The notes under the pieces were generated by a model that saw only the letters and a list, made by a program, of their open reading frames with translations, had not been told where the DNA came from and made no database searches. Positions 964 to 19,591 of a stretch of DNA of 20,000 nt are shown here, piece by piece. The stretch covers positions 876,908-896,907 of the forward strand of contig KV454011.1 in NCBI GenBank assembly GCA_001661245.1. Direction: 5' to 3'. Source of the DNA: Pachysolen tannophilus NRRL Y-2460. Lineage: Eukaryota. A program made the position numbers and the translations under genes. The number at the start of each line of letters is the position of its first letter. Positions within the stretch are counted from its first letter, which is position 1.

Positions 964-1854
964 ATGCAGACGCATCCAACTATTAAAGATGGATGGTTTA
1001 GAGAAATATCAGAGACTTCATTTCCTGGCCAAGCATTTTGTTTAAAAGTTAAGAGAATTCTTCATAGTGAAAAATCTGAATTTCAAGACATTTTAGTGTT
1101 TGAATCGGAAAGTTATGGAAATGTGTTGGTATTAGATGGGATTGTTCAATGTACTGAAAGAGATGAGTTTGCATATCAAGAATTAATTTCACATATACCA
1201 TTATTTTCACATCCTAATCCAAAGAGGATCTTGGTTATTGGTGGAGGTGATGGGGGTGTCTTGAGAGAAGTTGTTAAACATGGAGATACTATTGAAAGTG
1301 TGACTTTAGTGGAAATTGATGAAACTGTTATAAAATTAAGTAAAAAATATTTACCAAATATGGCAAAAGGTTTTGATCATGAAAAAGTTAAAGTAGTATT
1401 AGATGATGGGTTTAAATTTTTGAAAAAAGTTCTGCAAGAAAATAATGGGAAATATGATATAATTATTACTGATTCTTCTGATCCAGAAGGTCCAGCAGAA
1501 GCATTTTTCAGGAAAAATTATTTTGAATTAATGTATAATGCATTGAATGATGATGGTATAGTTATCACTCAAGCTTCAGAAAATTGTTGGTTAAACGTTG
1601 ATAAATTGAAAGATTTGAAAAAAATATGTAAACAAGTTTTCCCAATTGTTGAATATGGATACGTTACTATACCTTCATATACATCGGGACAGTTGGGATT
1701 GATGTGTTGTAGTAAAAAATTACAAATTACAGAACCAATTAGAAAATTGTCTACACTGGAAGAAAGTAAATTATTTAAATATTACAATAGTGAGATACAT
1801 AAAGCAAGTTTTATACATCCAACATGGGCCAAAAAACTTATTGATGGAAATTAG
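964..1854 (+). CDS. SPE4: Spermine synthase (aminopropyltransferase)
   Basis: First ATG is at 964 (track start 958 is GTG). Family motifs LVIGGGDGG and DSSDPEGPA are present. Spe4-type rather than Spe3-type residues: [26 protein letters not shown], SENx[11 protein letters not shown]. Adjacent to RMP1 and ACF2 as in S. cerevisiae. Confidence 0.88.
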
Positions 1855-1885
1855 AAATTAGAAATTAGAAATTAGAAATTAGAAA
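1847..1885 (+). repeat. (GAAATTA)x5.6 tandem heptamer overlapping the SPE4 stop codon
   Basis: Perfect units start at 1847, 1854, 1861, 1868 and 1875, followed by a partial GAAA. Confidence 0.95.
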
Positions 1886-1901
1886 GAAATAAATAAAGTT
1901 T

Positions 1902-2564
1902 TTATCCAAATATATCATCAATTACACTTCTCTTTTTCTGTTTCGTAGTCTTATCTTTTTTCTTCTTTTTCTGTTTCTTTTTTTCTGTCTTGTTCTTTCC
2001 AAACACTTCATCTATAAAATCCATGCCTTTTTCTTGCTCCATCACCATCTTCTCTAATTTATTTATATCATTATCATTATTATCATTATCATCGATTTCA
2101 AATTTCGTTGCTACTATTTCTTCACCTATATCTTGCCTATTAACGGCAAAATCAAGAATTTCCTGCCTTATTCCAATTTTTGAAATGTTTTCCTTAGAAT
2201 TATCTTTCACTTCTATTAATATGCCATATATTTTACTCAAACACCCAATCAAGGCAAAACCTGAAGTTATAAATTGACCTAAATTCAAAATCGAGTAAAA
2301 TGCAGAATATGAATCCGGTATTATATATCTAAGCAAATATTTCACTATTCCCAATTGTCTTTCCTTTAAATTTTTACCTCTAGTTTTTGGCAATAACAAC
2401 AACAACAACTTCCTCAAATACCTTACCAAGATATTTAAATATTTAAACCATTTAGAAGACTTGTGTTGATTCTTATTTCTATGATAAAGCAAAAATAATA
2501 TCTCGTACTCATTAGTTAGACTCTTTATCTGGACATCAGAAAATATCGGTCCTTCCAAACTCAT
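1902..2564 (-). CDS. RMP1: RNase MRP-specific subunit Rmp1
   Basis: 220-aa ORF with LxxEYxILxLLxHRNKNQH near the N-terminus, an LGQF motif, and a Lys-rich C-terminus ending SVIDDIFG. It lies between SPE4 and ACF2 as in S. cerevisiae. Confidence 0.9.
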   Translation of the reverse strand: MSLEGPIFSDVQIKSLTNEYEILFLLYHRNKNQHKSSKWFKYLNILVRYLRKLLLLLLPKTRGKNLKERQLGIVKYLLRYIIPDSYSAFYSILNLGQFITSGFALIGCLSKIYGILIEVKDNSKENISKIGIRQEILDFAVNRQDIGEEIVATKFEIDDNDNNDNDINKLEKMVMEQEKGMDFIDEVFGKNKTEKKKQKKKKKDKTTKQKKRSVIDDIFG

Positions 2565-2903
2565 ATTCTAAAAAAATCTCAACACAGGAGCAACGATATC
2601 CCTCTGTTACTTCAAACACTTTTATTAATCAAAGTTCAACCAATTCATGATCATGGTCTTAAAACTTATCATAGTCTTCTTCTTCGCAAAATGTGATGGC
2701 ATAAGCGCACTTTTTCCATTTTTCTACGTTAAAAGCGCACAGCGTTTGCTTCCGCTTTTAAATATTTTGCATGCGCACTTTTCTCTTAATATTCTTGGTA
2801 TTTTGTGCATAGAGTGTGGATTCAATTAGCAGTTTCTCTTTAGTTTGGGGTTGAGTTTTCATTAGTCTATTGAAATCGATTGAATGGATTGAAGAATTTA
2901 ATC

Positions 2904-5321
2904 ATGGGCCTTGTGCATAAGTTGGCTGATAAGATTGAGAGTAAGACTCATAAGGGTGGCAGTAGGGGTGGAAGTGCTGGTGTTGATGGTACCGGATCTG
3001 CTCTTGGGAATTCGAATGCACATCAGGTGAAAGCTCAAACGCAAACGGAAACGCAAACGCAAACGCATGGAAAACTGGGCTATTCTTATAGCAGACCACC
3101 AATGCCATTACCAGTACCGCAAAGGCCAAATAATGGTATTGGTCTGGATGATATTTTTTTTACTCCAGTCTCGGATCTGGATCCTTCATTATTTTTCCAA
3201 TCAGCAAATCATCCACTTTCCCTTCCGCATGGAATTTATAACGATTTTTTTAAGAAAGATAGATGCTCATCGCCAATTGAAACAAATTCATTTTATGGAA
3301 ACCTTTTGGTTGACAATCAAACCGCACCTGTATGGACGCATCCTTACTCTATGTGGTATACTGCAAATAGAGAAGATGAGCAGCAGTTTTTTGGATGGGC
3401 AATATCTCATGTAACGAGTGATCAAAGAGTATTTGGACCAAATCCAAATGATGATCGTATCCAGTATTATTTCAATCCAGCTGGCATCAAGAGTTTTGTC
3501 TTTACCGCGCAAGAGTTTAATGACAAGAGAAATGTTGTATTAGAAATTGATAGTTGTGAAAAATTTAGTACCAATATTTACCTATCTCCAAAGAATAGTA
3601 ATTCTTTTCTTAAATTCCCGTTGGTACAAGGTATGGGATTTATAACTGGTATTTACTTTGATTTAATTCCAAAATTACAATCGGGTATTGGTATCCAAAA
3701 TTTTGAATTAGACCATACTTTTAAGAGTGCTAATAACGGTATGATTCAAAAAAAGTATAAAATTAAGTTATTTAATAATATTATATGGACATTATACGTT
3801 ACATCAACTGAAGATTTCAAATTAGAACTACAAGACCCTCAAAACATTGTTAGTGCAAATATTGTTAGGAAGTGTATTATACAGCTTGCATCTGGCTCAA
3901 ATGAAGCTTACGATAAAGCTGCTGGTTGCTATCCAACAGCTTGTAAACTTTCTGCAAAAATTGAAAATCATGGGAGTAAAGCAAGTTATGCATTCAATTA
4001 TACAATTGAGGGAAAAGATAATAGCTTTGCAAATACAACTCTAATGTATGCTTTACCTCATCATCAGCAAAGTTTCCTGTCTTCAATGAATAGTAGAAGA
4101 ACTGATTTACAATTGGATTCAACAGTATGTGGCAAGATGAGTGGCTATCTTACAAATGAATTTTTAATGGAAGAAAATTTACCACTGAAGATTAATATGG
4201 ATCCATGGATTGATTATGCCAATTTCCATGGAAATAATTATACTCCTCAGCTGTTAGAATCTATTAAAAGGGCAATTTCTACTGAATTTAACGATGATGT
4301 TGTAAATATTTCTAATACCGATTCGATGTACTCTTCGGGGAAAATCCTAGACAAATATGCTTACATATTATATGTCATTGCCTATGTCTTAAAAGACAAG
4401 GAACTTCTGTTGAGATTTCTGGATAAATTGGAAACTGCCATAAATAGATTTACCACAAATCAACAACAATGTCCTTTGGTGTTTGATCAGACTTGGAAAG
4501 GTATAGTCTCATCTGCTGGTTTAGATGGAAACATTTTCAAAGATTTTGGTAACACTCATTACAATGATCATCATTTTCATTATGGTTACCATATTCATTC
4601 TTGTGCAATTTTAGCCAAGTTCGATAAGGAATTTAAAAACGGTGAATTTTTAAGAAGAAACAAAGAATGGGTGAATTTTCTTATCAGAGATGTTGCCAAC
4701 CCTCGTAAAGATAATTTTTTCCCAGAATCAAGATCTTTTGATTGGTTTAATGGACATTCTTGGGCAAAAGGGATGTTTCCATCATTTGATGGTAAAGATG
4801 AAGAAAGTTCTTCGGAAGACTACAATTTTGCTTATGCTTTGAAAATTTGGGGGAATGTTGTAGGTGATAAAAATATTGAATCAAGGGGTAATTTGATGCT
4901 TGCAATTATGAAACGATCAATGAATAATTACATGCTATATAAAGATGATAATACGGTCGAGCCTTCAAAGATCATAAAGAACAAAGTAAGCGGTATCATG
5001 TTCGAAAACAAGATTGATCATGCAACCTATTTTGGTACAAACTTGGAATACATTCAAGGAATACACATGCTACCTATAACACCTATTTCATCCTACATTA
5101 GATCTCCCCAGTTTGTTAAAGAAGAATGGGAACAATTATTGAAAAATCATGTCTTGACACTTGATGACGGTTGGAAAGGTATATTGATGTTAAATTTAGC
5201 CCTATACGACCCACATAGCGCATGGAACTTCTTCAACGATAGCAGATTCCAAATGAAGTGGTTGGATAACGGTATGAGTTTGACTTGGTGTTTGGCATTT
5301 TGTGCTGGAGTGAGTCAATGA
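2904..5321 (+). CDS. ACF2: Intracellular endo-1,3-beta-glucanase, GH81 (Acf2/Eng2)
   Basis: First in-frame ATG is at 2904 (track start 2880 is TTG). GH81 motifs PLVQGMGF, YNDHHFHYGY, RSFDWFNGHSWAKG, DEESSSED and FENKIDHATYFG are present. No signal peptide. YSRPPMPLPVPQRP resembles the recalled Acf2 N-terminus. Confidence 0.92.
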   Translation: MGLVHKLADKIESKTHKGGSRGGSAGVDGTGSALGNSNAHQVKAQTQTETQTQTHGKLGYSYSRPPMPLPVPQRPNNGIGLDDIFFTPVSDLDPSLFFQSANHPLSLPHGIYNDFFKKDRCSSPIETNSFYGNLLVDNQTAPVWTHPYSMWYTANREDEQQFFGWAISHVTSDQRVFGPNPNDDRIQYYFNPAGIKSFVFTAQEFNDKRNVVLEIDSCEKFSTNIYLSPKNSNSFLKFPLVQGMGFITGIYFDLIPKLQSGIGIQNFELDHTFKSANNGMIQKKYKIKLFNNIIWTLYVTSTEDFKLELQDPQNIVSANIVRKCIIQLASGSNEAYDKAAGCYPTACKLSAKIENHGSKASYAFNYTIEGKDNSFANTTLMYALPHHQQSFLSSMNSRRTDLQLDSTVCGKMSGYLTNEFLMEENLPLKINMDPWIDYANFHGNNYTPQLLESIKRAISTEFNDDVVNISNTDSMYSSGKILDKYAYILYVIAYVLKDKELLLRFLDKLETAINRFTTNQQQCPLVFDQTWKGIVSSAGLDGNIFKDFGNTHYNDHHFHYGYHIHSCAILAKFDKEFKNGEFLRRNKEWVNFLIRDVANPRKDNFFPESRSFDWFNGHSWAKGMFPSFDGKDEESSSEDYNFAYALKIWGNVVGDKNIESRGNLMLAIMKRSMNNYMLYKDDNTVEPSKIIKNKVSGIMFENKIDHATYFGTNLEYIQGIHMLPITPISSYIRSPQFVKEEWEQLLKNHVLTLDDGWKGILMLNLALYDPHSAWNFFNDSRFQMKWLDNGMSLTWCLAFCAGVSQ
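3036..3065 (+). repeat. (CAAACG)-type hexamer repeat encoding QTQTETQTQT in the ACF2 N-terminal extension
   Basis: caaacg caaacg gaaacg caaacg caaacg. Confidence 0.9.
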
Positions 5322-5520
5322 GAGCATCACGACAGTCGTGTTCAAACCTCCTAAAACAAGAAGCTGCATCATCTCGCAGAACACCGTAAAGACGATAAAG
5401 AAGAGAATGGAGAAATCGATATAGATAGACCAAAACGTCTTAAATATATATATAGATATATATATAGTTGAAATTTGTCATTTTTATTGTTTCTTCTGAG
5501 TAATCAAGCTTTATGACAAT

Positions 5521-6042
5521 ATGTCTATTAATCTTCAGCCAGGTGACAGGTTTCCTTTGAATGTGAAATTTAACTACATTCCTTTCGAACCAAACTCGCA
5601 ATCATGCAGACAACCAATTAAATTCAATTGCGATGAACAATTCAAGGGAAAAAAAGTAATAATTGTTTCAATTCCGGCCGCTTTTTCTCCGACATGTTCA
5701 GAGAATCATATCCCACCTTTTATCGAAAGGCTTCCACATTTTCTCTCCAAGGGAATTGATCTTATTGTTGTGCTATCTGCAAATGATCCATTCGTAATGA
5801 ACGCATTTGCTCATCACTTGGGTGTTAAGAATAATAAGATTGTTTTCGTCAATGATCCTAGTGCCTGTTTTTCCAAAAGTATTGGTTTTCACATCGAAGA
5901 TAGTGGTAATTCCAATGGGATGGGTATTCGTAGTGGGAGGTATGCCATAATAATTGATAATTTAATTGTTAGATATTGTAGCATGGAAATTAAAAGAACT
6001 GTCAACGTCAGTAGCGCAGATACTCTCCTCTCAAAACTTTGA
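5521..6042 (+). CDS. AHP1: Prx5-type peroxiredoxin (Ahp1/Pmp20 family) with C-terminal PTS1 SKL
   Basis: PAAFSPTC carries the peroxidatic Cys59, and SQSCRQP carries an Ahp1-like resolving Cys29. NDPFV and SGRYA motifs are present and the protein ends in SKL. Family call is firm; AHP1 versus PMP20 orthology is less so. Confidence 0.8.
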   Translation: MSINLQPGDRFPLNVKFNYIPFEPNSQSCRQPIKFNCDEQFKGKKVIIVSIPAAFSPTCSENHIPPFIERLPHFLSKGIDLIVVLSANDPFVMNAFAHHLGVKNNKIVFVNDPSACFSKSIGFHIEDSGNSNGMGIRSGRYAIIIDNLIVRYCSMEIKRTVNVSSADTLLSKL

Positions 6043-6190
6043 AAACAAAAAATCATCGTAGAATCCTATCTGGTCTATTTCAATCCGATCCGATTGCAAA
6101 AATTATCATTAATTGTTGATTATACTTTGGGTCGGAGATAACTTGGTAATACGGCAAAACTCCGTTTATAAATTATTTTTTTTTTTTTGT

Positions 6191-6197
6191 TTAGTAA
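6191..6197 (+). promoter_or_regulatory. Candidate Yap1/Cap1 response element TTAGTAA
   Basis: Exact canonical YRE about 100 bp upstream of the AKR ATG, next to a poly-T tract. AT-rich background makes chance matches possible. Confidence 0.35.
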
Positions 6198-6295
6198 TAG
6201 ATAAAGTATTTTGGTTGTATTTAATTGAGTTTGATTTATTCTTTTAAAATTTTGATACAATTGATTTTAAAGAAGATTCAATTGAAAAAGAGAAT

Positions 6296-7348
6296 ATGTC
6301 GAATAACGATAACGTTGTTCCTTTAGATTTTTATAGAAATTTAGGTAATTCAGGTTTAAAAATTTCTAAAATCATTGTTGGCTGCATGTCATATGGTGAT
6401 AAACTGTGGGCAGATTGGGTTCTTGATGATGAAGAGAAAATTTTCCGTATTATGAAAAAATGCTATGATAATGGTATAAGGACATTTGATACTGCGAATG
6501 TTTATTCCAATGGTAAAAGTGAAGAGATTTTAAGGAAATTTATTGAAAAATATAAAATTAAGAGAAGTAAAATTGTTATTCTTTCTAAATGTTATTTTCC
6601 AGTAGATCCATATTCACCAGATTTTTATTCTCCTGAAAGGGAAAAAACTCCTGCTTATGAGTATATTAATTTACAAGGTCTTTCAAGAAAACATATTTTT
6701 GATGCTGTGGAAGATTCTGTTAAAAGATTAGGTACATATATGGATGTTTTACAAATCCATAGGTTGGATAAATCAACACCACCTGAAGAGATTATGAAAT
6801 CATTAAACGATGTTGTTGAGAAAGGTTATACGAGGTATATTGGTGCTTCATCGATGAAAGCATATGAATTTGCAAATTTACAATTTATTGCTGAAAAAAA
6901 TCATTGGCATAAATTTATTTCAATGCAAAATTATTATAATTTAATATATCGTGAAGAAGAACGAGAAATGATTCCTTATTGTAATGAATTTAATGTTGGT
7001 TTAATTCCGTGGTCTCCAAATGCTCGTGGATTATTGACCAGACCATTAAGCTCTAATAGTGATCGAACTAAATCTGACAAGAGCATGACACGTCTAAATT
7101 TAGATAAAATTGAAAATGATGCTGACGTTGAAATTATTAAAAGAGTTGAAGAATTATCAAAAAGGAAAAATGTCTCAATGGCAGCTATAGCCACAGCATG
7201 GGTTATTAACAAAGGTCAAACCCCAATTGTTGGTATCAATAAAGAAGAAAGAATCGATGATTTGCTTATCGCTGCTAAGCTACAGTTGACAAAGGAAGAA
7301 TTACAATATCTTGAAGAACCTTATGCACCAAAACTGCTGCTTTTTTGA
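6296..7348 (+). CDS. Aldo-keto reductase, YPL088W / Candida IFD-like (aryl-alcohol dehydrogenase-type)
   Basis: LGNSGLKISKIIVGCMSYG; catalytic tetrad contexts FDTANVY (Asp, Tyr), ILSKC (Lys) and LQIHR (His); also YIGASSM, SMQNYYNLIYREEEREM and IPWSP. Confidence 0.92.
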   Translation: MSNNDNVVPLDFYRNLGNSGLKISKIIVGCMSYGDKLWADWVLDDEEKIFRIMKKCYDNGIRTFDTANVYSNGKSEEILRKFIEKYKIKRSKIVILSKCYFPVDPYSPDFYSPEREKTPAYEYINLQGLSRKHIFDAVEDSVKRLGTYMDVLQIHRLDKSTPPEEIMKSLNDVVEKGYTRYIGASSMKAYEFANLQFIAEKNHWHKFISMQNYYNLIYREEEREMIPYCNEFNVGLIPWSPNARGLLTRPLSSNSDRTKSDKSMTRLNLDKIENDADVEIIKRVEELSKRKNVSMAAIATAWVINKGQTPIVGINKEERIDDLLIAAKLQLTKEELQYLEEPYAPKLLLF

Positions 7349-7470
7349 AAAATTATTAACTATTTTAGTCTCTTTTTTTTTATTTAGTTTGCCTTTAAAT
7401 AAATTTAAAATAAAAGAACTCATTTTCTTTGCATGTTTTAAGTAGATAGATAAGACAAAGATAGCTGCAC

Positions 7471-7472
<2 letters not shown>

Positions 7473-7506
<34 letters not shown>

Positions 7507-7535
7507 ATCTTTCTATCTATCTCTCTTTATCTTTC
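7473..7535. repeat. (CT)15 microsatellite followed by a degenerate pyrimidine tract
   Basis: Pure CT repeat at 7473-7502, then CTTT/CTAT-type units. Confidence 0.9.
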
Positions 7536-7630
7536 TGCCGCTCTCCGGGCCCCGTTGCTCTCCGCCCTTTGCCTTTCTTTCCGCCCATTCTCATCTAGAT
7601 GGCCGAACTAAAAAAAAAAAAGTACGTTCG

Positions 7631-7947
7631 NNNNNNNNNNNNNNNNNNNNNNNNNNNNNNNNNNNNNNNNNNNNNNNNNNNNNNNNNNNNNNNNNNNNNN
7701 NNNNNNNNNNNNNNNNNNNNNNNNNNNNNNNNNNNNNNNNNNNNNNNNNNNNNNNNNNNNNNNNNNNNNNNNNNNNNNNNNNNNNNNNNNNNNNNNNNNN
7801 NNNNNNNNNNNNNNNNNNNNNNNNNNNNNNNNNNNNNNNNNNNNNNNNNNNNNNNNNNNNNNNNNNNNNNNNNNNNNNNNNNNNNNNNNNNNNNNNNNNN
7901 NNNNNNNNNNNNNNNNNNNNNNNNNNNNNNNNNNNNNNNNNNNNNNN
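7631..7947. other. Assembly gap (317 N)
   Basis: Run of N flanked by poly-A tracts. Confidence 0.99.
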
Positions 7948-8247
7948 AAAAAAAAAAAAAAACAAGTCGTTCGTCTAAAATCAAAAGCTTGATCTTAAAC
8001 GATATTAGTCAAATAAAATAAAAAAAAAAAAAAAATTAACAAAAGATCGATCGCATGTGATACCACTAATATAACTTATTTTAATTAAGGTCAGTTTTTT
8101 TTTCTCTTTTTCTTTTTCTTTTTTATTTTTCTTTTTTTAAATTATAATTTAATACACCAAAACATAATGAATACAACCTATAATAATAAACAATAATAGT
8201 AATATAGAAATAAATTATTTATTTGGAAGTGTTGTTATTATTTTTAA

Positions 8248-9936
8248 ATGAAACAGATAATTTTATTGAGGCATTCTATAAGGGTGGACAAGGAGATTAG
8301 AAACGTTAATAATAGTGATGGTAGTATAGATACCTCATCGTGGCTTTCAAATTTTGATCCGCCTTTGGATATCGATAAGAGTATTAAGCAGTTGAATGAG
8401 ACTTTTAATGATCATGTTTTGGAATTGATTGGGAGTAAAGGTGGTGATATAATAATACATAGTTCGCCTTATAATAGGTGTTTGCAGACGGCGGAGATAA
8501 TAACTGAGAAATTTTCTGGTGATGATCATGATGATCATATTACAAGATTAAGAATTGATCATTCGCTTTCGGAATGGTTAAATTTTAATTTCAATTTGAG
8601 GTATTTACCTCCAAATGATAAAGGTTTATCGTTGATGAGTAATGTTAACCAATATCTATATGGCGGTAATAGTAAGTTACTGGAATTAAGAGATCCTTAT
8701 TGGAATAATTATAAATTTGGTGATCCAGGAGAGTATGGGGAATCGTTGAACCATTTTAAGAAGAGATGTTTGAACTATTTACAACAGCTTTTGGTGCATT
8801 ACGAAGGTATGGATAATGAAGATAATGATGATGATTCCACAGTGATAATAATTTCTCATGGTGCTGTGATATCTGTGTTGTTACAAATAATGTTAAAAAG
8901 AAATATATTCAGTGAGATTCCATTGGGGACCCCAATCATCTTTAATAAGATTGATCATTTGTTATTTCAAATACTTGATTATGATTCTATCCATATGGAT
9001 GATGATTTATTTCCACAAGATGGAATTTATGATTTAAGTCATTTAACTTTACCAATAGGTTATGAATCAAATATATTGATTTCTTCTTTTACAAATAATA
9101 ATATTTCACCGTTGCCCTCTTTAACATCTTCTAATTCATCATGCAATACTTCATCAAATTCTTCATCAAATGGTGAGAATCCAGAAATATTACCAAAGAT
9201 TAATTCTTTTGAATTGACAAATAAATTAGATAGTATCAATGATGATGTTAGTAGTGTTTCTTCATCATATAATAATGAAAGAAAATATAAAAATGGGAAT
9301 CTAGATGATGATGATAGTGGTAGCTCCCCCAATGATGAAGATGATGAAGGCTTATCATTCAGTTTTTCTAAAAATTTTAAAATTCATAATAACGCCATTA
9401 ACAGACATAGAGCTAATACTACAGGATCTTCATTTATTCATAACGTTGATTTATCTAGTGATATAGTATCATCACCAACAGATATAAATTTCAATAGACA
9501 TAGACCAAGAAAAAGTATTTACTTAGATAATGGTCTTAGTTTAAAAGATTATTTTTTAAACACAAGAAATAATAGTAATACAAATGAAAGCGATCAAAAC
9601 TTCAAGGAGTATCAATCTCAAACTGGAGATGATAATACATTGGATAGTGATGGCACAATTACAGCCAATGATGAAGATAGTATAAACAGCAGCAACAACA
9701 ACAATAATAATAATAATAATAATAATTATAATAAAAATAATGATAATAATAATAATAATGATTTTATGCTATCTTTTACATCAGACTCAGGAAAGGACTC
9801 CGTAACGATTAATAAGCTTCACAAGAACAGTAATAACAGCTTGAAAAATATTTTATTCAACGTATCTTTGGATAATATATCAGAGGTTAATGAAGACGAT
9901 GAAAGTAATTGGTTTGGGTTTAATAATAAAGTTTGA
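8248..9936 (+). CDS. Histidine phosphatase (phosphoglycerate mutase-like) superfamily protein with a long low-complexity C-terminal tail
   Basis: IILLRHSIRVD (RHG-motif variant), DPPL, IHSSPYNRCLQTA, LSEW, GES..F..R and IISHGA lie in the first ~245 aa. The remainder is Asn/Ser/Asp-rich. Confidence 0.82.
   Translation: MKQIILLRHSIRVDKEIRNVNNSDGSIDTSSWLSNFDPPLDIDKSIKQLNETFNDHVLELIGSKGGDIIIHSSPYNRCLQTAEIITEKFSGDDHDDHITRLRIDHSLSEWLNFNFNLRYLPPNDKGLSLMSNVNQYLYGGNSKLLELRDPYWNNYKFGDPGEYGESLNHFKKRCLNYLQQLLVHYEGMDNEDNDDDSTVIIISHGAVISVLLQIMLKRNIFSEIPLGTPIIFNKIDHLLFQILDYDSIHMDDDLFPQDGIYDLSHLTLPIGYESNILISSFTNNNISPLPSLTSSNSSCNTSSNSSSNGENPEILPKINSFELTNKLDSINDDVSSVSSSYNNERKYKNGNLDDDDSGSSPNDEDDEGLSFSFSKNFKIHNNAINRHRANTTGSSFIHNVDLSSDIVSSPTDINFNRHRPRKSIYLDNGLSLKDYFLNTRNNSNTNESDQNFKEYQSQTGDDNTLDSDGTITANDEDSINSSNNNNNNNNNNNYNKNNDNNNNNDFMLSFTSDSGKDSVTINKLHKNSNNSLKNILFNVSLDNISEVNEDDESNWFGFNNKV
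9694..9759 (+). repeat. (AAC/AAT)n poly-Asn coding trinucleotide repeat
   Basis: Encodes NNNNNNNNNNNYNKNNDNNNNN. Confidence 0.9.
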
Positions 9937-10302
9937 TAAAGGTCAAGGGAACAGGTTGCTTAATTTTTTCTTTTTTTTTTTTTTTTTTTTTGTTTTGTTT
10001 TTCTTCTAAAACATTTCATAAGACACTAATTAATTATATGTCGATATTTACAATTTTCGACACGAATCATATAAGCATCTTCACTGATCAGAGATAGTCA
10101 TTGCTTGCTGCCTTTTTTTTTTTTTTTACATTTCCTTATTTTTAATATAAAAATATTTATAACCAAGTATTCCAACAATTATACTATGGTTATGCTCTAT
10201 AAGTGAAATTTTTTACATAGGAACTCTTATATTTATTATTATTATATTATATTATATTATAGTGAATACTCTTTATATGCATATTAAATGAAGCAAAAAA
10301 GG

Positions 10303-10312
10303 AAAAAAAAAA
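10303..10312 (-). terminator. RNA polymerase III oligo-dT terminator of tRNA-Gln
   Basis: T10 on the minus strand, 9 nt downstream of the tRNA discriminator base. Confidence 0.75.
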
Positions 10313-10321
10313 TTGAGTTGT

Positions 10322-10393
10322 AGGTCGTACCCGGATTCGAACCGGGGTTAATTGGATCAAAACCAACTGTGATAACCACTACACTATACAACC
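10322..10393 (-). tRNA. tQ(UUG): tRNA-Gln (anticodon UUG), intronless, 72 nt
   Basis: Minus strand reads GGTTGTATAGTGTAGTGGTTATCACAGTTGGTTTTGATCCAATTAACCCCGGTTCGAATCCGGGTACGACCT. Acceptor stem GGTTGTA/TACGACC; anticodon arm GTTGG-TT(TTG)AT-CCAAT; T arm CCCGG-TTCGAAT-CCGGG; A and B boxes intact. Confidence 0.97.
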
Positions 10394-11355: not shown

Positions 11356-13395
11356 TCAACAATTAACAATATATCCAAAATCTTGTTCGTAATTACTCAA
11401 TAAAATAAGAGGAATTTTACAATAAAATTCCATTCCGTTATCTAAATGATCAACAGCTTTATATAGAGCACCTTTACTATCATTATAGATGTTAACAAAC
11501 TCATAATTTTTCTCAGATTCTGATGTATCTTCTTCTTTAGTCTTTTGAGCTTCATCAGTAGAACTTTTATTGCTCAGATCTCTATTCAACAATATAAACT
11601 TGAATAAGAGAACGTATTTTACTTCAAGTAAGTTTGTTTTAAATTGACCATTTCTAACTTTGTCATTAGGAATAAGCATATCAAAACTTAATTCATCATT
11701 CTCGTTAAATGAACTAATAAAAATTTCATTCACATTAGTCTCTAATTCATAGTTTGAATTGAGTTCAATTGATGACGTACTTTCATCATCATTTCTGATG
11801 TAGTCAGTATCATTGAATTTTTCAACTTTTATAATCTTAGTTATTAAACCTGTTATAGGTATCTTGGAGTTTTTCATATTTAAATGAACTTTCAAGATTT
11901 CATTGCTAGTCACTATTGATTTAGATAATGATATTGTTGCAATTAATTCTGCATTTCTTTTCAATATAAAGTTCAATTGTGGTTTGATGGGGATCTGAGA
12001 ATGAAATTTAATATCATGATCATGAATTATTTCTTTCTTATCGTTATTACTTTTATTAAATTCATTAATTTTTTTAGCAATATCTGATGGATTAGTCATA
12101 ATATTGATTAAATTCTCTCTTACATCTTCTTTTATATCATTTCCAATTTCACTTAAAAATTGTGTTTCAAATTTTTCTTGAATACCAATCAAATCGTTGT
12201 TTTTGTTCATTTCCAGAATGAAATCAATAAATTTTTGTCTTTCTATAATATTTAACTTTTGATCTGGATTGCCATTTGAATAATATGAATTTTCTTCTTC
12301 AATATTGAATGATGACACACTTATTGTTGAGCTTCTTCTATTATGTGATGGTATGTCTTTACCAAGTCTTCTTCTAATAGATCTAAATGTTGCCTTCCTA
12401 TCTGGACTATTTTTACCCAGGGAATCATTTAAATCAAGAACTTTAACTTGACACATATAATTCAATTTTGGTTGTAATAAATCAAAAATTGGTTGTTGTC
12501 CAAACTGATTAATAAAAGGTTGTATTTCTAAAGGGAAATATAAAGTTTTATTTACCAATTTATTATTCTCATCAAACATTTGAAAACCAACTACAAGATT
12601 ATAGACAATTTTCAAACTTGATAAAGAATTATAAGATGGCGGTAAAAACTTTGGTAATTGTATGGAGGTATAAAATTCTTTTGTTAAAGAATTAAGGTTT
12701 TTAAATGAAATTTCAGAGAATAAGATAGATTGTGTTGAAGAAAATATTGGAATTATTTTGGACTTCATAGATTCATCATTATTCCTCTTGTGGACATTTG
12801 CTCCATCATCATCAGGTATAACTCCAGCACTGAATAACAGACCAAAGCCTGAGGAAAAAGTGTTCCAATAACCATCATCATCTTTATTATTGAAATCTAA
12901 ACCATTAATTCCACCCAATTTACCACCTATGACAGTTTTACTTTGAATTTCTTTAAAACTCTTTATATCAAAAATTTCATCATTTAAAGTATAATACCCA
13001 AATATTTGCGAATAACCCAGCAACAAAGACTCATCTTTTTTATTTTTAGCACTTTCTTCTTCTTCGTTGATATTTTCTAGTTCCAGAAGAAATAAAGATC
13101 TTGTAGTATTGGATAATTGAAAAGAAAGACGTTTACCAATACTCGACCAACTATTGTCCTCATCATTCCCTTTAGCATTCAAAGTATTATCAGTCAGAAC
13201 ATAATCATTATCAAGGTGCGTGTTGTCCTTGACATTGTCTGCATTAGTGGGTGCTGGTAATTTCCCAATATATTTAAACCTTAATATTAAAGACAAGTCA
13301 TTACCATTTCCAGCAAATACAGGATAATTCTCATATATCAACTCAAGCCTAATGCTCTCATTAATCAATTGGTTGAATATACTGTGCGTTATCAT
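11356..13395 (-). CDS. RGP1: Rgp1, subunit of the Ric1-Rgp1 GEF for Ypt6/Rab6
   Basis: 679-aa ORF. N-terminal IRLELIYENYPVFAG..LSLILRFKYIG resembles recalled Rgp1; also GYSQIFG, IPIFSSTQSILFSE, LPKFLPPSY and QFKTN. Divergent from YCF1 as in S. cerevisiae. Confidence 0.85.
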   Translation of the reverse strand: MITHSIFNQLINESIRLELIYENYPVFAGNGNDLSLILRFKYIGKLPAPTNADNVKDNTHLDNDYVLTDNTLNAKGNDEDNSWSSIGKRLSFQLSNTTRSLFLLELENINEEEESAKNKKDESLLLGYSQIFGYYTLNDEIFDIKSFKEIQSKTVIGGKLGGINGLDFNNKDDDGYWNTFSSGFGLLFSAGVIPDDDGANVHKRNNDESMKSKIIPIFSSTQSILFSEISFKNLNSLTKEFYTSIQLPKFLPPSYNSLSSLKIVYNLVVGFQMFDENNKLVNKTLYFPLEIQPFINQFGQQPIFDLLQPKLNYMCQVKVLDLNDSLGKNSPDRKATFRSIRRRLGKDIPSHNRRSSTISVSSFNIEEENSYYSNGNPDQKLNIIERQKFIDFILEMNKNNDLIGIQEKFETQFLSEIGNDIKEDVRENLINIMTNPSDIAKKINEFNKSNNDKKEIIHDHDIKFHSQIPIKPQLNFILKRNAELIATISLSKSIVTSNEILKVHLNMKNSKIPITGLITKIIKVEKFNDTDYIRNDDESTSSIELNSNYELETNVNEIFISSFNENDELSFDMLIPNDKVRNGQFKTNLLEVKYVLLFKFILLNRDLSNKSSTDEAQKTKEEDTSESEKNYEFVNIYNDSKGALYKAVDHLDNGMEFYCKIPLILLSNYEQDFGYIVNC

Positions 13396-13608
13396 TATTC
13401 CTTCTGATTAATTGATCTCTTAACATAGCATTTACTTATTTATTAAACATATTTAATTGTCGAATCAGCCGAAATAAAGAAAAGCTTACAAAAAAAAATA
13501 AATCAAAAATTAAAAATTAAAAAAAGAAAATAGCAAAATAACTCAATTAATTAAACAATAAAGCTATTTAATTATAATATTCAGTTGGAGAACGAGGAAG
13601 GAATAGAA

Positions 13609-16600
13609 ATGGATTCTTTTTGTAGAGATAAAGAGGGTCTTGGACCTTTATCTCCAGTTTATTCAGATTTGACTATATGTTTTATAAATGGAGTATTAAT
13701 TAATCTGAGTTCTTTATTTTTAATTATATTTGGTACTGGACAGTTTTTCAGTTTATACAAGAAGAAGAATATAAGATTGAAAGTGGATGATTGGTCATTT
13801 AAATTGAAACTATTTATGGTTGTGTTACAAGTTGCTTTTACTGTAGGATTGTTGGCTTCGAATCAGCAAAAGGATTTGATCAATCCAATCTTGTCGCTTT
13901 TTGCATTACTAATAGGATTAAATTTACATTATATTGAAAGATTTAAGACAAATATTCCGAATGGTATCTTATTATTTTACTGGTTGTTCACTGCGATGTT
14001 TGGGGTGTTGAAAATAGGGAATTTAACTGTTCGTTCGAAATTTAATAGTGAATTCATATTTTCGGTATTTATTACAATTAATGGATTTTTTATATTGTTA
14101 GTGGAATCTTTAGTTCCACTGAAATATTCTCGTGAAATAGAATTAAATCCTTTAGAGACTTCAAATGTGTTTGGTCGTATTTCATTCAGTTGGATGTCAC
14201 CATTAATGGTAAAAGGTGATAAAAAATTTTTAGTTCAAAACGATTTACCGCCATTGCCAAGATTCCTTGAAGCATCTAATGCTTTTGAAACTCTTAAAAC
14301 CAATTGGAATAAGCAATTAAGTTATACTACAAAGCCTTCATTAGTTAATGCAATTGCAAAATCATTTGGAGGACCTTTTGTCATTGCAGGTTTATTCAAA
14401 GCAATACAAGATATATTAGCTTTCACACAACCTCAATTGTTAAGATATTTGATCAAGTTTGTCAATGATTATAACGAATCCCCTGAAGATGACAGGTTGC
14501 CTTTAACTAGAGGTTACATGATTGTATTTGCCATGTTTTTGGTTTCCATTGTTCAAAGTGCTTGTTTACACCAATATTTCCAAAGAGCTTTTGATCTTGG
14601 GATGAAGATTAAAAGTTCTTTGATTTCAACCATTTATGCAAAATCGTTGAAACTATCAAATGAAAATAAATTAAGCAATTCCACAGGTGATATTGTAAAC
14701 TTGATGTCTGTTGATACTCAAAGATTACAGGACCTTGTACAATATTTGCAAGTACTTTGGTCGGGACCTTTCCAAGTAATATTATGTCTTACATCGTTAC
14801 ATTCATTATTGGGAAATGCAATGTGGATTGGTGTTGCAATAATGATAATTATGGTCCCATTGAATGGTGTAATAGCTAAACAACAGAAAAAGTTGCAGAA
14901 AATTCAAATGAAAAATAAAGATGAAAGAACAGGAATTGTTTCAGAGATTTTAAATAATATTAAATCTTTGAAGTTGTATGGATGGGAAATTCCTTATATG
15001 GAAAAATTGACTTATGTTAGGAATGAAAAAGAATTGAAAAATTTGAAAAAAATGGGTATTTTCCAAGCATTTTCAAATTTTACTTGGAACACAGCTCCTT
15101 TCTTAGTTAGTTGTTCTACTTTTGGTGTCTTTGTATTGATAAATAAAGATACTCCTCTTTCGACAGACCTTGTTTTCCCGGCTTTATCATTATTCAACTT
15201 GTTGTCTTTTCCATTGGCAGTTTTTCCAAATGTTATAACTTCCGTTATTGAGGCTCAAGTTGCTGTTTCAAGACTCTCTAAATTTTTCGCTAGTGAAGAA
15301 TTGCAAAATGATTCAGTTGTGAGATTGCCTCTGGTAAATAAAATTGGTGAAGAAGCAGTTAAGGTAACCAATGGTGAGTTTTTATGGACAAGACTTCCTT
15401 ATAAGCCTGCATTATCAAATATAAATTTTGTAGCTAAGAAAGGTGAATTGAATTGTATAATTGGAAAAGTTGGTACTGGTAAATCATCTTTTATTCAGGC
15501 TATATTAGGTGACCTATACAAGTCAGAGGGTTTGGTTATCACACATGGTTCCATAGCTTATGTTCCACAAGTACCATGGATCATGAATGGTACAATTAAA
15601 GACAATATTCTTTTTGGTTCTCGTTATGATCCAGACTTTTATGCTAAGACAATTGCTGCCTGTGCTTTAGAAAAAGATTTGGAAATTTTACCAAAAGGAG
15701 ATAAAACTCAAGTTGGTGAAAAAGGTATTTCTTTAAGTGGTGGACAAAAAAGCAGATTATCTTTAGCGAGAGCAGTCTATTCAAGAGCGCTGATATACTT
15801 ATTTGATGATCCATTAAGTGCTGTTGATGAGCACGTTGGAAAACATTTAATCAACAATGTTTTTGGACCTAACGGTTTGTTAAGCACTAAATGTAGGATT
15901 TTAACTACAAATAATTTGAACGTTTTGAAGTATTCCAACTACATTGCAATGTTACAAAATGGTACAATTGTTGAAGAAGGATCTTTCCTGAAAATTATGG
16001 AAAATGAAAATTCGTTATTAAACACTTTAATCACTGAATTCAGTAAGCACCAGAAAACCCCAACTTCATCAGTACCACCTTCCGCATTACCTAGCTCCGT
16101 CGAGTTGAATAAAGTATCAGTTGATGATGATTTCAAGATTGATGCGAAAAGTTTGAGAAAGGCTAGTGTTTCGACTTTCAAATTACCTGAAGAAGAAGAT
16201 GATGAAGAAGAACGTAAGATTCGCGCAGAAGCACATCAGCAAGGTAAAGTCAAATGGGCTGTCTATCTTGCATATGCAAAATCTTGTAATCCAAAAGGTG
16301 TAGTTGTATTTTTAACATTTATAATGTTATCGATGGCAACAGGTGTTTTGGGAAACATTTGGTTAAAGCACTGGTCTGAAGTCAATAGCGAGTTAGGTTA
16401 CAACCCTAATGTTGCCAAATATCTTCTTATTTATTTCATTTTAGGTGTTGGGTCTTCTGCATTAAGTTTGTGTCAAATTGTAATTCTTTGGGTATTTTGT
16501 ACCATCCATGGTTCGAGAAATTTGCACAAGCGTATGGCCAACCGTGTTCTCAGGGCTCCTATGTCATTTTTTGAAACTACTCCAATTGGTAGAATCTTGA

Positions 16601-18009
16601 ATAGGTTCTCCAATGATATTTATAAAGTGGACGAGGTACTTGGAAGAGTTTTTTCAATGTTTTTTTCAAATACGATTAAAGTCTTCTTTACAATATTAGT
16701 TATTTGTTGGTCTACATGGCAGTTTATTTTCTTTGTTATTCCAATGGGATTCCTGTACTACTATTATCAACAATATTACTTACGTACATCAAGGGAGTTG
16801 AGACGTTTAGACTCAATCTCAAGATCTCCAGTATTTTCGCATTTCCAAGAAACTCTTAATGGTGTTTCTACAATCAGAGCTTATGATCAAACGGAGAGAT
16901 TTGAGTTTTTGAATGAAGCAAGGGTTGATAAGAATATGTGTGCATACCACCCAGCAATAAGCGCAAATAGATGGTTAGCTGTCAGATTAGAATTTCTTGG
17001 TTCCTTGGTTATATTATGTGCCTCCGGATTGTCGGTCGCAACTTTGGATCTGAATCACGTAACAGCAGGTATAGTTGGTCTTTCTGTTAGTTATGCATTA
17101 CAAATAACTCAGTCTTTAAATTGGATTGTTAGAATGACTGTTGAAGTTGAAACAAACATTGTCTCCGTCGAGAGAATTGAAGAATATTGTAATTTGGATA
17201 TTGAAGCACCAGATATCATTGAATCTAACAGGCCTCCTCTGCATTGGCCGTTTAATGGTGAGATTAAATTTCAGGATTACTGTGCCAGATATAGGCCAGA
17301 TTTGGACTATTGTTTAAATCATATAAATTTATTGATTAAACCAAAGGAAAAAATTGGTATTGTTGGAAGAACCGGTGCTGGAAAATCATCTTTAACAATG
17401 GCCCTATTTAGAATTATTGAAGCTTCGGAAGGTTATATAGCTATCGATAGTTTGCAGACAAATACTATCGGCTTAGCTGATCTAAGACACAAGCTTTCAA
17501 TAATTCCGCAAGATTCACAAGTGTTTGAAGGAACCGTCAAAGAGAATTTAGATCCTACTAATCAATATACCGACGAACAATTATGGAAATCTTTAGAGTT
17601 GTCTCGTTTATCAAAACATATTAAACAAATGTCCATTGAAAGCGGGGAAGAAAATGGATTGAATGTCAAATTAGCAGAAGGTGGTTCGAATTTAAGTGTT
17701 GGTCAAAGACAATTGATCTGTCTTGCAAGGGCCTTATTGATTGAATCTGCAATATTAGTATTGGATGAAGCAACTGCTGCAGTTGATGTAGAGACAGATA
17801 AAATTTTACAGGAAACAATAAGATCAGAATTTAAAAATAGAACAATTTTAACGATTGCTCATAGGTTAAACACTATCATGGATAGCGATAGAATTATGGT
17901 TTTGGAAAGAGGTAAAGTTGCTGAATTTGATACACCTGAGAATTTATTGAAAAAGAAAGATTCTTTGTTTTACTCTTTATGTCTCGAAGGTGGTTTAATT
18001 GAAGAATAG
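13609..18009 (+). CDS. YCF1: Vacuolar ABCC/MRP glutathione-S-conjugate (cadmium) transporter
   Basis: First ATG is at 13609 (track start 13585 is TTG). TMD0 begins CRDKEGLGP. NBD1 has GKVGTGKS, LSGGQ and YLFDD. The linker has LRKAS (Ycf1 S908-like site). YYQQYYLRTSRELRRLDS is present, and NBD2 has GRTGAGKS, LSVGQ and LVLDEATA. Confidence 0.94.
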   Translation: MDSFCRDKEGLGPLSPVYSDLTICFINGVLINLSSLFLIIFGTGQFFSLYKKKNIRLKVDDWSFKLKLFMVVLQVAFTVGLLASNQQKDLINPILSLFALLIGLNLHYIERFKTNIPNGILLFYWLFTAMFGVLKIGNLTVRSKFNSEFIFSVFITINGFFILLVESLVPLKYSREIELNPLETSNVFGRISFSWMSPLMVKGDKKFLVQNDLPPLPRFLEASNAFETLKTNWNKQLSYTTKPSLVNAIAKSFGGPFVIAGLFKAIQDILAFTQPQLLRYLIKFVNDYNESPEDDRLPLTRGYMIVFAMFLVSIVQSACLHQYFQRAFDLGMKIKSSLISTIYAKSLKLSNENKLSNSTGDIVNLMSVDTQRLQDLVQYLQVLWSGPFQVILCLTSLHSLLGNAMWIGVAIMIIMVPLNGVIAKQQKKLQKIQMKNKDERTGIVSEILNNIKSLKLYGWEIPYMEKLTYVRNEKELKNLKKMGIFQAFSNFTWNTAPFLVSCSTFGVFVLINKDTPLSTDLVFPALSLFNLLSFPLAVFPNVITSVIEAQVAVSRLSKFFASEELQNDSVVRLPLVNKIGEEAVKVTNGEFLWTRLPYKPALSNINFVAKKGELNCIIGKVGTGKSSFIQAILGDLYKSEGLVITHGSIAYVPQVPWIMNGTIKDNILFGSRYDPDFYAKTIAACALEKDLEILPKGDKTQVGEKGISLSGGQKSRLSLARAVYSRALIYLFDDPLSAVDEHVGKHLINNVFGPNGLLSTKCRILTTNNLNVLKYSNYIAMLQNGTIVEEGSFLKIMENENSLLNTLITEFSKHQKTPTSSVPPSALPSSVELNKVSVDDDFKIDAKSLRKASVSTFKLPEEEDDEEERKIRAEAHQQGKVKWAVYLAYAKSCNPKGVVVFLTFIMLSMATGVLGNIWLKHWSEVNSELGYNPNVAKYLLIYFILGVGSSALSLCQIVILWVFCTIHGSRNLHKRMANRVLRAPMSFFETTPIGRILNRFSNDIYKVDEVLGRVFSMFFSNTIKVFFTILVICWSTWQFIFFVIPMGFLYYYYQQYYLRTSRELRRLDSISRSPVFSHFQETLNGVSTIRAYDQTERFEFLNEARVDKNMCAYHPAISANRWLAVRLEFLGSLVILCASGLSVATLDLNHVTAGIVGLSVSYALQITQSLNWIVRMTVEVETNIVSVERIEEYCNLDIEAPDIIESNRPPLHWPFNGEIKFQDYCARYRPDLDYCLNHINLLIKPKEKIGIVGRTGAGKSSLTMALFRIIEASEGYIAIDSLQTNTIGLADLRHKLSIIPQDSQVFEGTVKENLDPTNQYTDEQLWKSLELSRLSKHIKQMSIESGEENGLNVKLAEGGSNLSVGQRQLICLARALLIESAILVLDEATAAVDVETDKILQETIRSEFKNRTILTIAHRLNTIMDSDRIMVLERGKVAEFDTPENLLKKKDSLFYSLCLEGGLIEE

Positions 18010-18205
18010 ATTCTTCTGTGTCAATTTTATGTTTTTTTTTTTTTCTTTTTTTTTTTGTTCAATTTTTGTAAAAACGTTTAAAGATATATAAATATGTATT
18101 TTAAAAAATTTTTTTTTGGATTACTATAGACATAATATTGGAAAGTAACTTTACTATGTTTAATAGTTGAAACTGAATAACCTTAACTAAAAAGCAGTAA
18201 TAATG

Positions 18206-18227
<22 letters not shown>
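18206..18227. repeat. (AT)n microsatellite in the convergent YCF1/HOG1 terminator region
   Basis: About 11 AT units, plausibly TATATA efficiency elements usable on both strands. Confidence 0.75.
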
Positions 18228-18237
<10 letters not shown>

Positions 18238-18472
18238 TCAATATGAAGAAATGAATAATTTACACATGTAAGAGAAATGAGGAAAAATGAGAGTTTCAAA
18301 GAAAAAAGTTGAAAAGAAGTATAACTAACATTCAAAGAAGGTAAAATAATCTTTTCTCTTTGAGTGAAAGAAAATAACAAAAGAAAATGAAAAAGAAAAA
18401 GAAAAAGAAGAAGAAAAAAAAACCAAGAAAAAAAAAAAAACAAACAACAACCAAAAATAATAATGAAATGGT

Positions 18473-19591
18473 TCAAGCTATGGACTTAACCACTTCTTGT
18501 TCATCTTGTTGCTGTCCCTGCTGGTCATTCAGATTGCTTTGATCAAACCCACTATCTACTTGGTGGAAATCTAAGATTTCACTATACATCATTACTCTCC
18601 AAGTATCGATAGGTAAATCTGCATCATTAAAACTCCAATCGAATTTTTCACTTGCTACTGGTTCATCTGTTGGATCATGGTACGGTGCTAAATAAGGATG
18701 AGCTAAAGCTTCTTCAGCGGTAATTCTTTTTCTTGGATCAAATACCAACATTTTTGATAATAAATCTACTGCATCTGGTTCAACATCTTTAAACCTTTCA
18801 GTTAATGGAATAGGTTCTCTTTTAGGTAATGATTGTACAAATCTTAATGTATTTTCAGAACATATGGTATCAATAACATCTTCTGGAGGGGAACCTAATA
18901 ATTCTGTTATTATTGAAAATTGATGAACATGATCTTTTCCTGGAAATAATGGTTTCCCTTCAATCATCTCTGCAAATATACAACCTGCTGACCAAATATC
19001 AACTTCTACATCATATTTTTGCCACGTCAACATAATTTCTGGAGCTCTGTAATAACGTGTTGAAACATAACCAGTCATTTGAGGATCTTGTATTCTAGCA
19101 AGACCAAAATCACAAATTTTCAAATCACAATTTTCATTAATTAAAATATTACTTGGTTTTAAATCTCTATGAATAACCCCTGCAGAATGAACATATTTCA
19201 ATCCTCTTAATATCTGATAAAGGAAATATTGTATAAATTGTTTTTCTAAAGGTCTCGAAGTTAATAATCTGTGTAAATCAGTACCTTGTAACTCAGTAAC
19301 AAAATATATATCTTCTAATGGAGATAAAAAAATATCTTCTAAAGTAATTAAATTTTCATGTCTTAAATGTTTTAATAATTTTAATTCTCTATAAGTTCTC
19401 TTGGCCAATACAGGAGTAGAAAAAGGTTTTAAAATCTTTTTTATTGCAACATTTTGGTTTGTCAACTTATCTTTCGCAGAACAGACAAGTCCAAAAGCAC
19501 CCATACCAACTGGATTCAAATCCCCATACCTATTAGTAATTTCGAAAACTGTACCAAATATTTGTGTTCTTGTAAATTCTTCTTGTGACAT
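18473..19591 (-). CDS. HOG1: Stress-activated MAP kinase Hog1
   Basis: [57 protein letters not shown] (TGY motif) and the docking region YHDPTDEP. Intronless, 372 aa. Confidence 0.98.

What the first reader, a model, noticed from the sequence alone, without database searches (positions are those of the whole stretch)
964..19591. CTG codons avoid conserved Leu sites: probable CUG reassignment (Ala or Ser)
Seen: about 28 in-frame CTG codons by manual scan, with none in the HOG1 kinase domain, UPS2, RMP1 or the peroxiredoxin. Against recalled S. cerevisiae orthologues most are at polar positions. YCF1: 15331 RLP*V (Lys), 15790 RA*IYL (Asp), 15988 GSF*KI (Asp), 17050 TLD*N (Gln), 17239 RPP*HWP (Lys). 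ACF2: 3144 G*DDIF (Ser), 4077 SF*SSM (Thr), 4185 LP*K (Gln), 4251 (Lys), 4407 (Thr). AKR: 6404 DK*WADW (Lys). SPE4: 1756 (Gln/Glu). As an internal control, YCF1 CTA codons sit at conserved Leu (GDLY 15514, ALF 17404, DLR 17482). Established: CUG is Ser in Debaryomycetaceae/Metschnikowiaceae and in Saccharomycopsis/Ascoidea, and Ala in Pachysolen/Nakazawaea. Inference: the L shown in the ORF track at these sites is probably wrong.
Basis: partly seen in the sequence, partly recalled or inferred. Interest (0 to 1): 0.72.

Follow-up and report, generated by a model that had tools for sequence, protein, structure and literature searches.

The report
Known CUG-to-alanine yeast genetic code

Summary
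Confirmed, and already known. The window has 30 in-frame CTG codons in 7 of 10 genes. In alignments of YCF1, ACF2 and the aldo-keto reductase, 2 of 18 CTG columns are mostly Leu, against 178 of 261 for other Leu codons (p=2e-6). The alignments cannot choose between Ala and Ser: 0 of 18 CTG columns are mostly Ala and 1 of 18 mostly Ser. The tRNA decides it. The one CAG-anticodon tRNA gene found in the genome has an alanine body (G3:U70, A73, 4-nt variable loop, nearest to tRNA-Ala). The window's contig has the same length as the contig of a record named Pachysolen tannophilus, and public records of three window proteins carry Ala at 17 of 17 CTG sites. CUG=Ala in this species was shown by mass spectrometry in 2016 (PMC4937558). 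The scan has noted the same thing on other pieces of this genome. What remains of interest is small: here CTG avoids conserved Ala sites too, unlike in a close relative, probably because CTG is two mutations away from GCN.

The parts
964..1854 (+).
   Evidence: Pfam PF01564/PF17284; positions; 1756 aligns to E/Q and 1432 to an insertion in solved homologues
2904..5321 (+). GH81 endo-1,3-beta-glucanase gene (ACF2-like); CTG at 3075, 3144, 3177, 4077, 4185, 4251, 4407, 4419
   Evidence: Pfam PF03639/PF17652; columns from 119 homologues; the public record of this protein has Ala at the 7 of 7 CTG it covers; 4419 is a Leu column (88/119)
6296..7348 (+). Aldo-keto reductase gene; CTG at 6404, 7334, 7337
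   Evidence: Pfam PF00248; all three columns variable; the public record has Ala at 3 of 3
8248..9936 (+). Histidine-phosphatase-family gene; CTG at 8680
   Evidence: Pfam PF00300; position; no alignment made
11356..13395 (-). RGP1 gene; CTG starting at 13197, 13086, 13020, 12840, 12420, 12216, 11577
   Evidence: Pfam PF08737; 18 homologues aligned, 13020 is Leu in 12 of 18; the public record has Ala at 7 of 7
13609..18009 (+). YCF1 ABC transporter gene; CTG at 13705, 14119, 15331, 15790, 15988, 16753, 17050, 17239
   Evidence: Best solved match is Ycf1; columns from 119 homologues; 15790 is Asp in 118/119, 16753 is Leu in 117/119
18473..19591 (-).
   Evidence: Pfam PF00069 residues 25-301; position
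1902..2564 (-). RMP1 gene, no CTG
5521..6042 (+). Peroxiredoxin (Redoxin family) gene, no CTG
1..494 (-). PRELI-family gene cut by the window edge, no CTG in the part held

Best explanation
The window is nuclear DNA of Pachysolen tannophilus (order Alaninales), and its CUG codons are translated as alanine. Shown here: the genome has a tRNA gene with anticodon CAG on an alanine-tRNA body, and no Leu- or Ser-type CAG tRNA was found. From established knowledge: alanyl-tRNA synthetase reads the G3:U70 pair and A73 and ignores the anticodon, so it charges this tRNA with Ala, and the missing long variable arm keeps LeuRS and SerRS off it. Shown by others: peptides carry Ala at CUG. Inferred: CTG lies two substitutions from any GCN codon but one from Leu, Val, Met, Pro, Gln and Arg codons. 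New CTGs therefore arise mostly as amino-acid changes at tolerant sites, which is why they avoid conserved Leu sites without marking conserved Ala sites. The three CTGs at Leu columns are then Leu-to-Ala changes, either old CUG-Leu codons that were never purged or recent one-step mutations.
For: tRNA at G000:C6:217831-217902 (-): 72 nt, pairs G1:C, G2:C, G3:U, C4:G, discriminator A, 4-nt variable loop, G37; best alignment among 34 other tRNA types is tRNA-Ala(AGC), 54 identities. None of 16 Leu/Ser-type tRNA matches has CAG. Leu-majority columns: 2 of 18 vs 178 of 261. The window's contig is 2,514,465 bases, the same as the contig of the window's own records and of P0123, named P. tannophilus by its source. 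Public records have Ala at 17 of 17 CTG sites, with no other differences. The nearest homologue P0001 shows L at 10 of 60 Ala-consensus YCF1 columns while the other 118 homologues show at most 2, the mark of a CUG-Ala relative translated by the standard code. LC-MS/MS: 97.2% Ala at 907 fully supported CUG positions (PMC4937558). One-step neighbours make up 0.40 of non-Ala residues in CTG columns vs 0.21 in GCN columns, p=0.004.
Against: 0 of 18 CTG columns are mostly Ala, vs 73 of 131 GCN columns (p=2.6e-6); Ser scores marginally above Ala, -8.3 vs -9.1. The flanking-residue test on 238 CTG sites scored Ala at -32.6, below Ser (-4.1) and Leu (-7.1), while the GCG and GCC controls ranked Ala third and second. 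Three CTGs sit at Leu-majority columns and one at a near-invariant Asp. The Ala in public records is an annotation choice, not a measurement. The tRNA similarity margin is small (score 39.0 for Ala(AGC), 35.5 for Gln(TTG)). The A-box patterns pass 38 of 39 nuclear-type tRNA sequences held and miss Leu(CAA), so a second CAG tRNA is not strictly excluded.
Confidence: 0.96

Rival explanations
1. CUG is read mainly as Ala but with a real share of Leu, by mischarging through A35/G37 or by wobble from tRNA-Leu(UAG). This would select against CTG at constrained Ala sites and tolerate it at some Leu sites.
For: The tRNA keeps G37 and a tRNA-Leu(UAG) gene exists. CTG is absent from all 73 Ala-majority columns and present at 3 Leu-majority columns. 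2 of 18 CTG columns are at least 90% conserved vs 930 of 2,515 others, p=0.026. Avoidance of conserved sites is the pattern reported for the dual-decoding yeast Ascoidea asiatica (PMC6041473).
Against: Proteomics found 97.2% Ala and deviations no more frequent than at AUG; the authors expect the missing variable arm to prevent mischarging (PMC4937558). CTG is not rare: 9.5% of Ala codons in a 50,392-codon sample, against 1.2% of Ser codons in A. asiatica. Mutational distance explains the pattern without ambiguity.
Confidence: 0.025
2. CUG is read as Ser, as in the Serinales or Ascoideales.
For: Ser has the best alignment score by 0.8 log units and outranks Ala in the flanking test. A 2014 conservation study assigned the Ser code to Pachysolen (PMC4986446).
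Against: The CAG tRNA is 72 nt with a 4-nt variable loop and an A discriminator, whereas the genome's intron-free Ser tRNAs are 82-84 nt with the long arm. Only 1 of 18 CTG columns is mostly Ser vs 98 of 203 for Ser codons. The same authors later showed Ala by MS.
Confidence: 0.005
3. Standard code: CUG is Leu, and CTG is just a rare codon kept to unconstrained sites.
For: Three CTGs at Leu-majority columns; ARAGORN labels the tRNA Leu(cag), but only from its anticodon.
Against: The equally rare CTA (4.8 per 1000 vs 4.7) behaves as Leu (score +27.7 vs -20.6 for CTG). No Leu-bodied CAG tRNA was found. Published MS shows Ala.
Confidence: 0.01

Closest known systems
CUG-Ala nuclear code of Pachysolen tannophilus (PMC4937558; NCBI table 26, number recalled and seen)
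   Same: Same species by contig match; tRNA-CAG with G3:U70, A73, 5' GGGC, G37 and no extended variable loop, as described in the paper; public records already use Ala.
   Different: No difference in the code. The paper says Pachysolen CUGs lie mainly at conserved Ala positions; in the three genes aligned here 0 of 73 Ala-majority columns carry CTG.
Other Alaninales (Nakazawaea, Peterozyma; PMC5951914, PMC11182611, PMC6041473)
   Same: [quoted passage not shown]
   Different: N. peltata uses CUG for 27.5% of Ala codons and at highly conserved Ala positions. Here it is 9.5% in a genome sample and avoids such positions. The unnamed relative P0001 looks like the N. peltata pattern.
CUG-Ser codes (Serinales; Ascoideales, including dual-decoding Ascoidea asiatica)
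   Same: CUG avoids conserved Leu sites; in A. asiatica it avoids conserved sites in general.
   Different: They use a Ser-bodied tRNA-CAG with a long variable arm (plus a Leu-bodied one in Ascoideales); neither was found here.

Membership tests
CUG-Ala code (Pachysolen/Alaninales) | tRNA gene with CAG anticodon carrying Ala identity elements G3:U70 and A73 | tested here: met
   G000:C6:217831-217902 (-); pairs and discriminator read out
CUG-Ala code (Pachysolen/Alaninales) | No extended variable arm; body related to tRNA-Ala | tested here: met
   72 nt, 4-nt variable loop; best of 34 other types is Ala(AGC), 54 identities, by a small margin
CUG-Ala code (Pachysolen/Alaninales) | No competing Leu- or Ser-type tRNA-CAG | tested here: inconclusive
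   None found. The patterns miss 1 of 39 nuclear-type tRNA sequences held and the Rfam search scored 63 of 1,003 candidates.
CUG-Ala code (Pachysolen/Alaninales) | CUG depleted at conserved Leu positions | tested here: met
   2 of 18 vs 178 of 261, p=2.1e-6
CUG-Ala code (Pachysolen/Alaninales) | CUG at conserved Ala positions (a usual diagnostic, not the definition) | tested here: not met
   0 of 18 CTG columns mostly Ala vs 73 of 131 GCN columns; three genes only
CUG-Ala code (Pachysolen/Alaninales) | Alanine in peptides at CUG positions | not testable with these tools
   Published for this species: 97.2% of 907 positions (PMC4937558)
CUG-Ala code (Pachysolen/Alaninales) | Organism belongs to Pachysolen, Nakazawaea or Peterozyma | tested here: met
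CUG-Ser codes (Serinales, Ascoideales) | Ser-bodied tRNA-CAG with long variable arm | tested here: not met
CUG-Ser codes (Serinales, Ascoideales) | CUG at conserved Ser positions | tested here: not met
   1 of 18 vs 98 of 203, p=3e-4

The most novel reading that the evidence does not exclude
Pachysolen CUG is not cleanly Ala. Under some conditions a measurable share is read as Leu (G37-dependent mischarging, or wobble by tRNA-Leu(UAG)), which keeps CTG out of conserved Ala sites and lets it stay at Leu-requiring sites such as YCF1 16753, ACF2 4419 and RGP1 13020. That would be a second natural case of dual decoding, in the Ala clade.
Probability: 0.03. Interest if true: 0.6.

Novelty: already known. 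Interest (0 to 1): 0.12.

Why it matters
Practically, 30 residues in 7 of the 10 proteins here are mistranslated by the standard code, and genes moved into or out of this xylose- and glycerol-fermenting yeast need CTG recoding. Scientifically the reassignment is published and defines an order (PMC11182611). The small added point is that in this species alignments show 'not Leu' but do not show Ala, so the tRNA or peptides are needed; this may explain the earlier Ser assignment (PMC4986446).

Tried and rejected
1. Rfam tRNA search of the genome: 63 of 1,003 candidates scored, the CAG tRNA not among them. A DNA search with tRNA-Ala(TGC) gave 6 hits, all ordinary Ala tRNAs. The patterns missed the gene (T-stem ends in AG, no spacer in the D-loop); some searches found it. 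Low-threshold ARAGORN 'Leu(cag)' calls in L048 and L068 vanished at the default threshold and were treated as noise.
2. A column-likelihood score could not pick the residue: all scores were negative for CTG, while 10 of 10 control codons ranked their own residue first.
3. The flanking-residue test does not support Ala. It ranked the right residue first in only 5 of 11 control codons at offsets 1-4, so I do not take it as a decoder, but it counts against a simple 'CTG sits where Ala sits' picture.
4. No solved structure for the aldo-keto reductase at E<=1e-45.
5. Sequencing runs: 5 of 7 listed hold 0.99-1.00 of 489 words of the YCF1 stretch, but four are one sample and one may be the source, so this is not independent support; no RNA holder listed. 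There is no read-level check of the CTG sites.
6. Rows dropped before counts: YCF1 1 of 120 listed (a 2,557-aa non-yeast protein); ACF2 1 of 120 (the window's own); AKR 3 of 120 (own and two long forms); RGP1 used 18 of the 149 non-self hits listed (those at E<=1e-30). ACF2 3075 and RGP1 13197 and 11577 had under half occupancy and were left out. SPE, the histidine phosphatase and the kinase tail had no family alignment. Many homologues are from CUG-Ser yeasts translated by the standard code, which adds a few false Leu at Ser columns.

Full report
Observation. Ten protein-coding ORFs were taken from six-frame translation and assigned to families by Pfam. They hold 30 CTG codons in 5,087 codons: SPE 2, ACF2-like 8, aldo-keto reductase 3, histidine phosphatase 1, RGP1 7, YCF1 8, kinase tail 1, and none in the PRELI, RMP1 and peroxiredoxin genes. 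The window also holds 317 N, so any codons there are not counted. YCF1 is supported by solved Ycf1 as best match.

Against solved Ycf1 the five listed CTG sites are K, D, D, Q and K, as recalled. SPE 1756 aligns to E in a Kluyveromyces-type entry (KLLA0B09372p) and to Q in a second solved spermidine synthase. The ACF2 and AKR recollections were checked only against family columns: three fit, two do not show the recalled residue as common, and one is partly met. The CTA controls are Leu in 116-118 of 119 homologues.

More than chance. I aligned 119 YCF1, 119 ACF2 and 117 AKR homologues. Of 18 usable CTG columns, 2 are at least half Leu, against 178 of 261 for the other five Leu codons (p=2.1e-6) and 14 of 18 for CTA plus CTC (p=1.3e-4). 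CTA is as rare as CTG in a 50,392-codon sample of 90 ORFs from the genome and the window (4.8 and 4.7 per 1000), so rarity does not explain it. In RGP1, with 18 distant homologues, the contrast is weak: 1 of 5 vs 22 of 61.

What the alignments cannot say. CTG columns are not Ala columns (0 of 18 vs 73 of 131 for GCN) and not Ser columns (1 of 18 vs 98 of 203). A likelihood score gave S -8.3, A -9.1, T -12.0 and L -20.6, whereas all ten control codons ranked their own residue first with a positive score. CTG sits at poorly conserved sites in general: 2 of 18 at 90% conservation or more, vs 930 of 2,515 (p=0.026). A homologue-free test on flanking residues of 238 CTG sites ranked Ala low (-32.6, with Ser -4.1 and Leu -7.1); its controls were noisy, but it goes against a naive Ala picture.

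The tRNA. Pattern searches of the genome found one tRNA gene with anticodon CAG, at G000:C6:217831-217902 on the minus strand. It is 72 nt, begins GGGC, and has a G3:U70 pair, discriminator A, a 4-nt variable loop and G37. Its best alignment among 34 other tRNA types held is tRNA-Ala(AGC), with 54 identities and a small margin over Gln(TTG) and Ala(TGC). The 16 matches to the Leu/Ser-type D-arm pattern have anticodons TGA (3), GCT (3), AGA (3), CGA (1), TAA (4), AAG (1) and TAG (1); none has CAG. The search is not exhaustive: the A-box patterns pass 38 of 39 nuclear-type tRNA sequences held, and the assembly has 197 contigs.

The organism. The window lies on contig C1, 2,514,465 bases. The window's own ACF2 and AKR records and the paralogue P0123, named Pachysolen tannophilus by its source, all come from a contig of that length. 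The public records of ACF2, AKR and RGP1 differ from the standard translation only at CTG, with Ala at 7 of 7, 3 of 3 and 7 of 7 sites. That shows the code is already used in annotation; it is not an independent measurement. More independent is the nearest unnamed homologue P0001, which has L at 10 of 60 Ala-consensus columns of YCF1 where the other 118 homologues have at most 2; P0122 has 3 of 17 in ACF2 where the others have at most 1. I read these as CUG-Ala relatives translated with the standard code (inference).

Mechanism. Shown here: an Ala-bodied tRNA-CAG and depletion of CTG at Leu sites. Established: AlaRS recognises G3:U70 and A73 rather than the anticodon (identity elements as cited in PMC4937558). 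Shown by others: 97.2% Ala at 907 fully supported CUG positions, with deviations like those at AUG. Inferred: CTG is two substitutions from GCN and one from Leu, Val, Met, Pro, Gln and Arg codons, so it enters mostly as a substitution at tolerant sites. Those six residues make up 0.40 of non-Ala residues in the 18 CTG columns vs 0.21 in 93 GCN columns with over 10% non-Ala (p=0.004); Leu is among the six, so relic Leu sites contribute. The three Leu-column CTGs are most simply Leu-to-Ala changes. Low-level Leu decoding is the remaining alternative, at about 3%.

Literature seen. PMC4937558: parts 1-3 of 6 of the text. PMC5951914: passages and parts 1-2 of 5; it places Pachysolen, Nakazawaea and Peterozyma in the Ala clade. 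PMC6041473, PMC11182611, PMC4986446 and PMC9154068: passages only. The 2014 paper found no Pachysolen CUG at Leu or Ser positions of 90% conservation and assigned the Ser code, which fits the weak alignment signal seen here. Riley et al. 2016 was not read. No supplements were opened; the tRNA alignments and per-site peptide tables there could say directly what is found at the sites discussed. Two literature searches were run; neither was aimed at whether the avoidance of conserved Ala sites is in print, so I do not claim it is unpublished.

Earlier notes of this scan. Eight of 110 fitting notes were listed, all on other pieces of this genome, and all reach the CUG-Ala reading. I had written my reading before seeing them, and they are not counted as support.

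Verdict. Interest 0.12.

Noticed in passing
window 15790-15792 (YCF1, first nucleotide-binding domain): CTG sits at a column that is Asp in 118 of 119 homologues, five residues before the Asp-Asp pair. The local DNA could have come from the usual Ala-Asp-Ile-Tyr codons by a two-base gain and a nearby two-base loss, either real or an assembly error. This is speculation; no reads were checked.
   Followed up: partly
G000:C10 (mitochondrial contig; L010:1791-1863, L018:1767-2924, L007:2216-3070): The mitochondrial CUN decoder found has anticodon AAG and no long variable arm (73 nt), and CTT is the main CUN codon. In cob and nad1, 0 of 6 CTN sites align to Thr in the alignments shown (mostly Leu, Ile or Val; one Cys), and most ATA sites align to Ile. 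This fits table 4, whereas PMC9154068 lists P. tannophilus under table 3 (passage).
   Followed up: partly
L008:281-427 (G000:C10): A near copy of a mitochondrial tRNA-Met lies right behind it with an altered anticodon arm; ARAGORN calls it Phe(aaa).
   Followed up: no
L006/L007 (G000:C10): Two mitochondrial ORFs, a long endonuclease-like one and a nad6-like one (both labels recalled), begin with the same 13 translated residues, suggesting a duplicated gene start.
   Followed up: no
P0001, P0122, P0362: The closest homologues look like a CUG-Ala relative whose CTGs occupy conserved Ala sites (10 of 60 in YCF1, against none in the window). P0001 and P0362 share a longest contig of 17,099 bases, suggesting RGP1 and YCF1 are neighbours there too.
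   Followed up: partly
L129:3959-6217 (-): A run of five CTG codons alternating with Gln reads as an Ala-Gln repeat under this code.
   Followed up: no
G000:C8:422116-422249 (-), L160: The one tRNA-Leu(UAG) gene found carries an intron of about 52 bases; whether it can wobble onto CUG bears on the ambiguity question.
   Followed up: no
window 10322-10393 (-): An ordinary tRNA-Gln(TTG) gene, the only tRNA in the window.
   Followed up: no
window 2904-5321 and P0123: The GH81 glucanase has a paralogue, 50% identical, on a contig of the same length as the window's.
   Followed up: no
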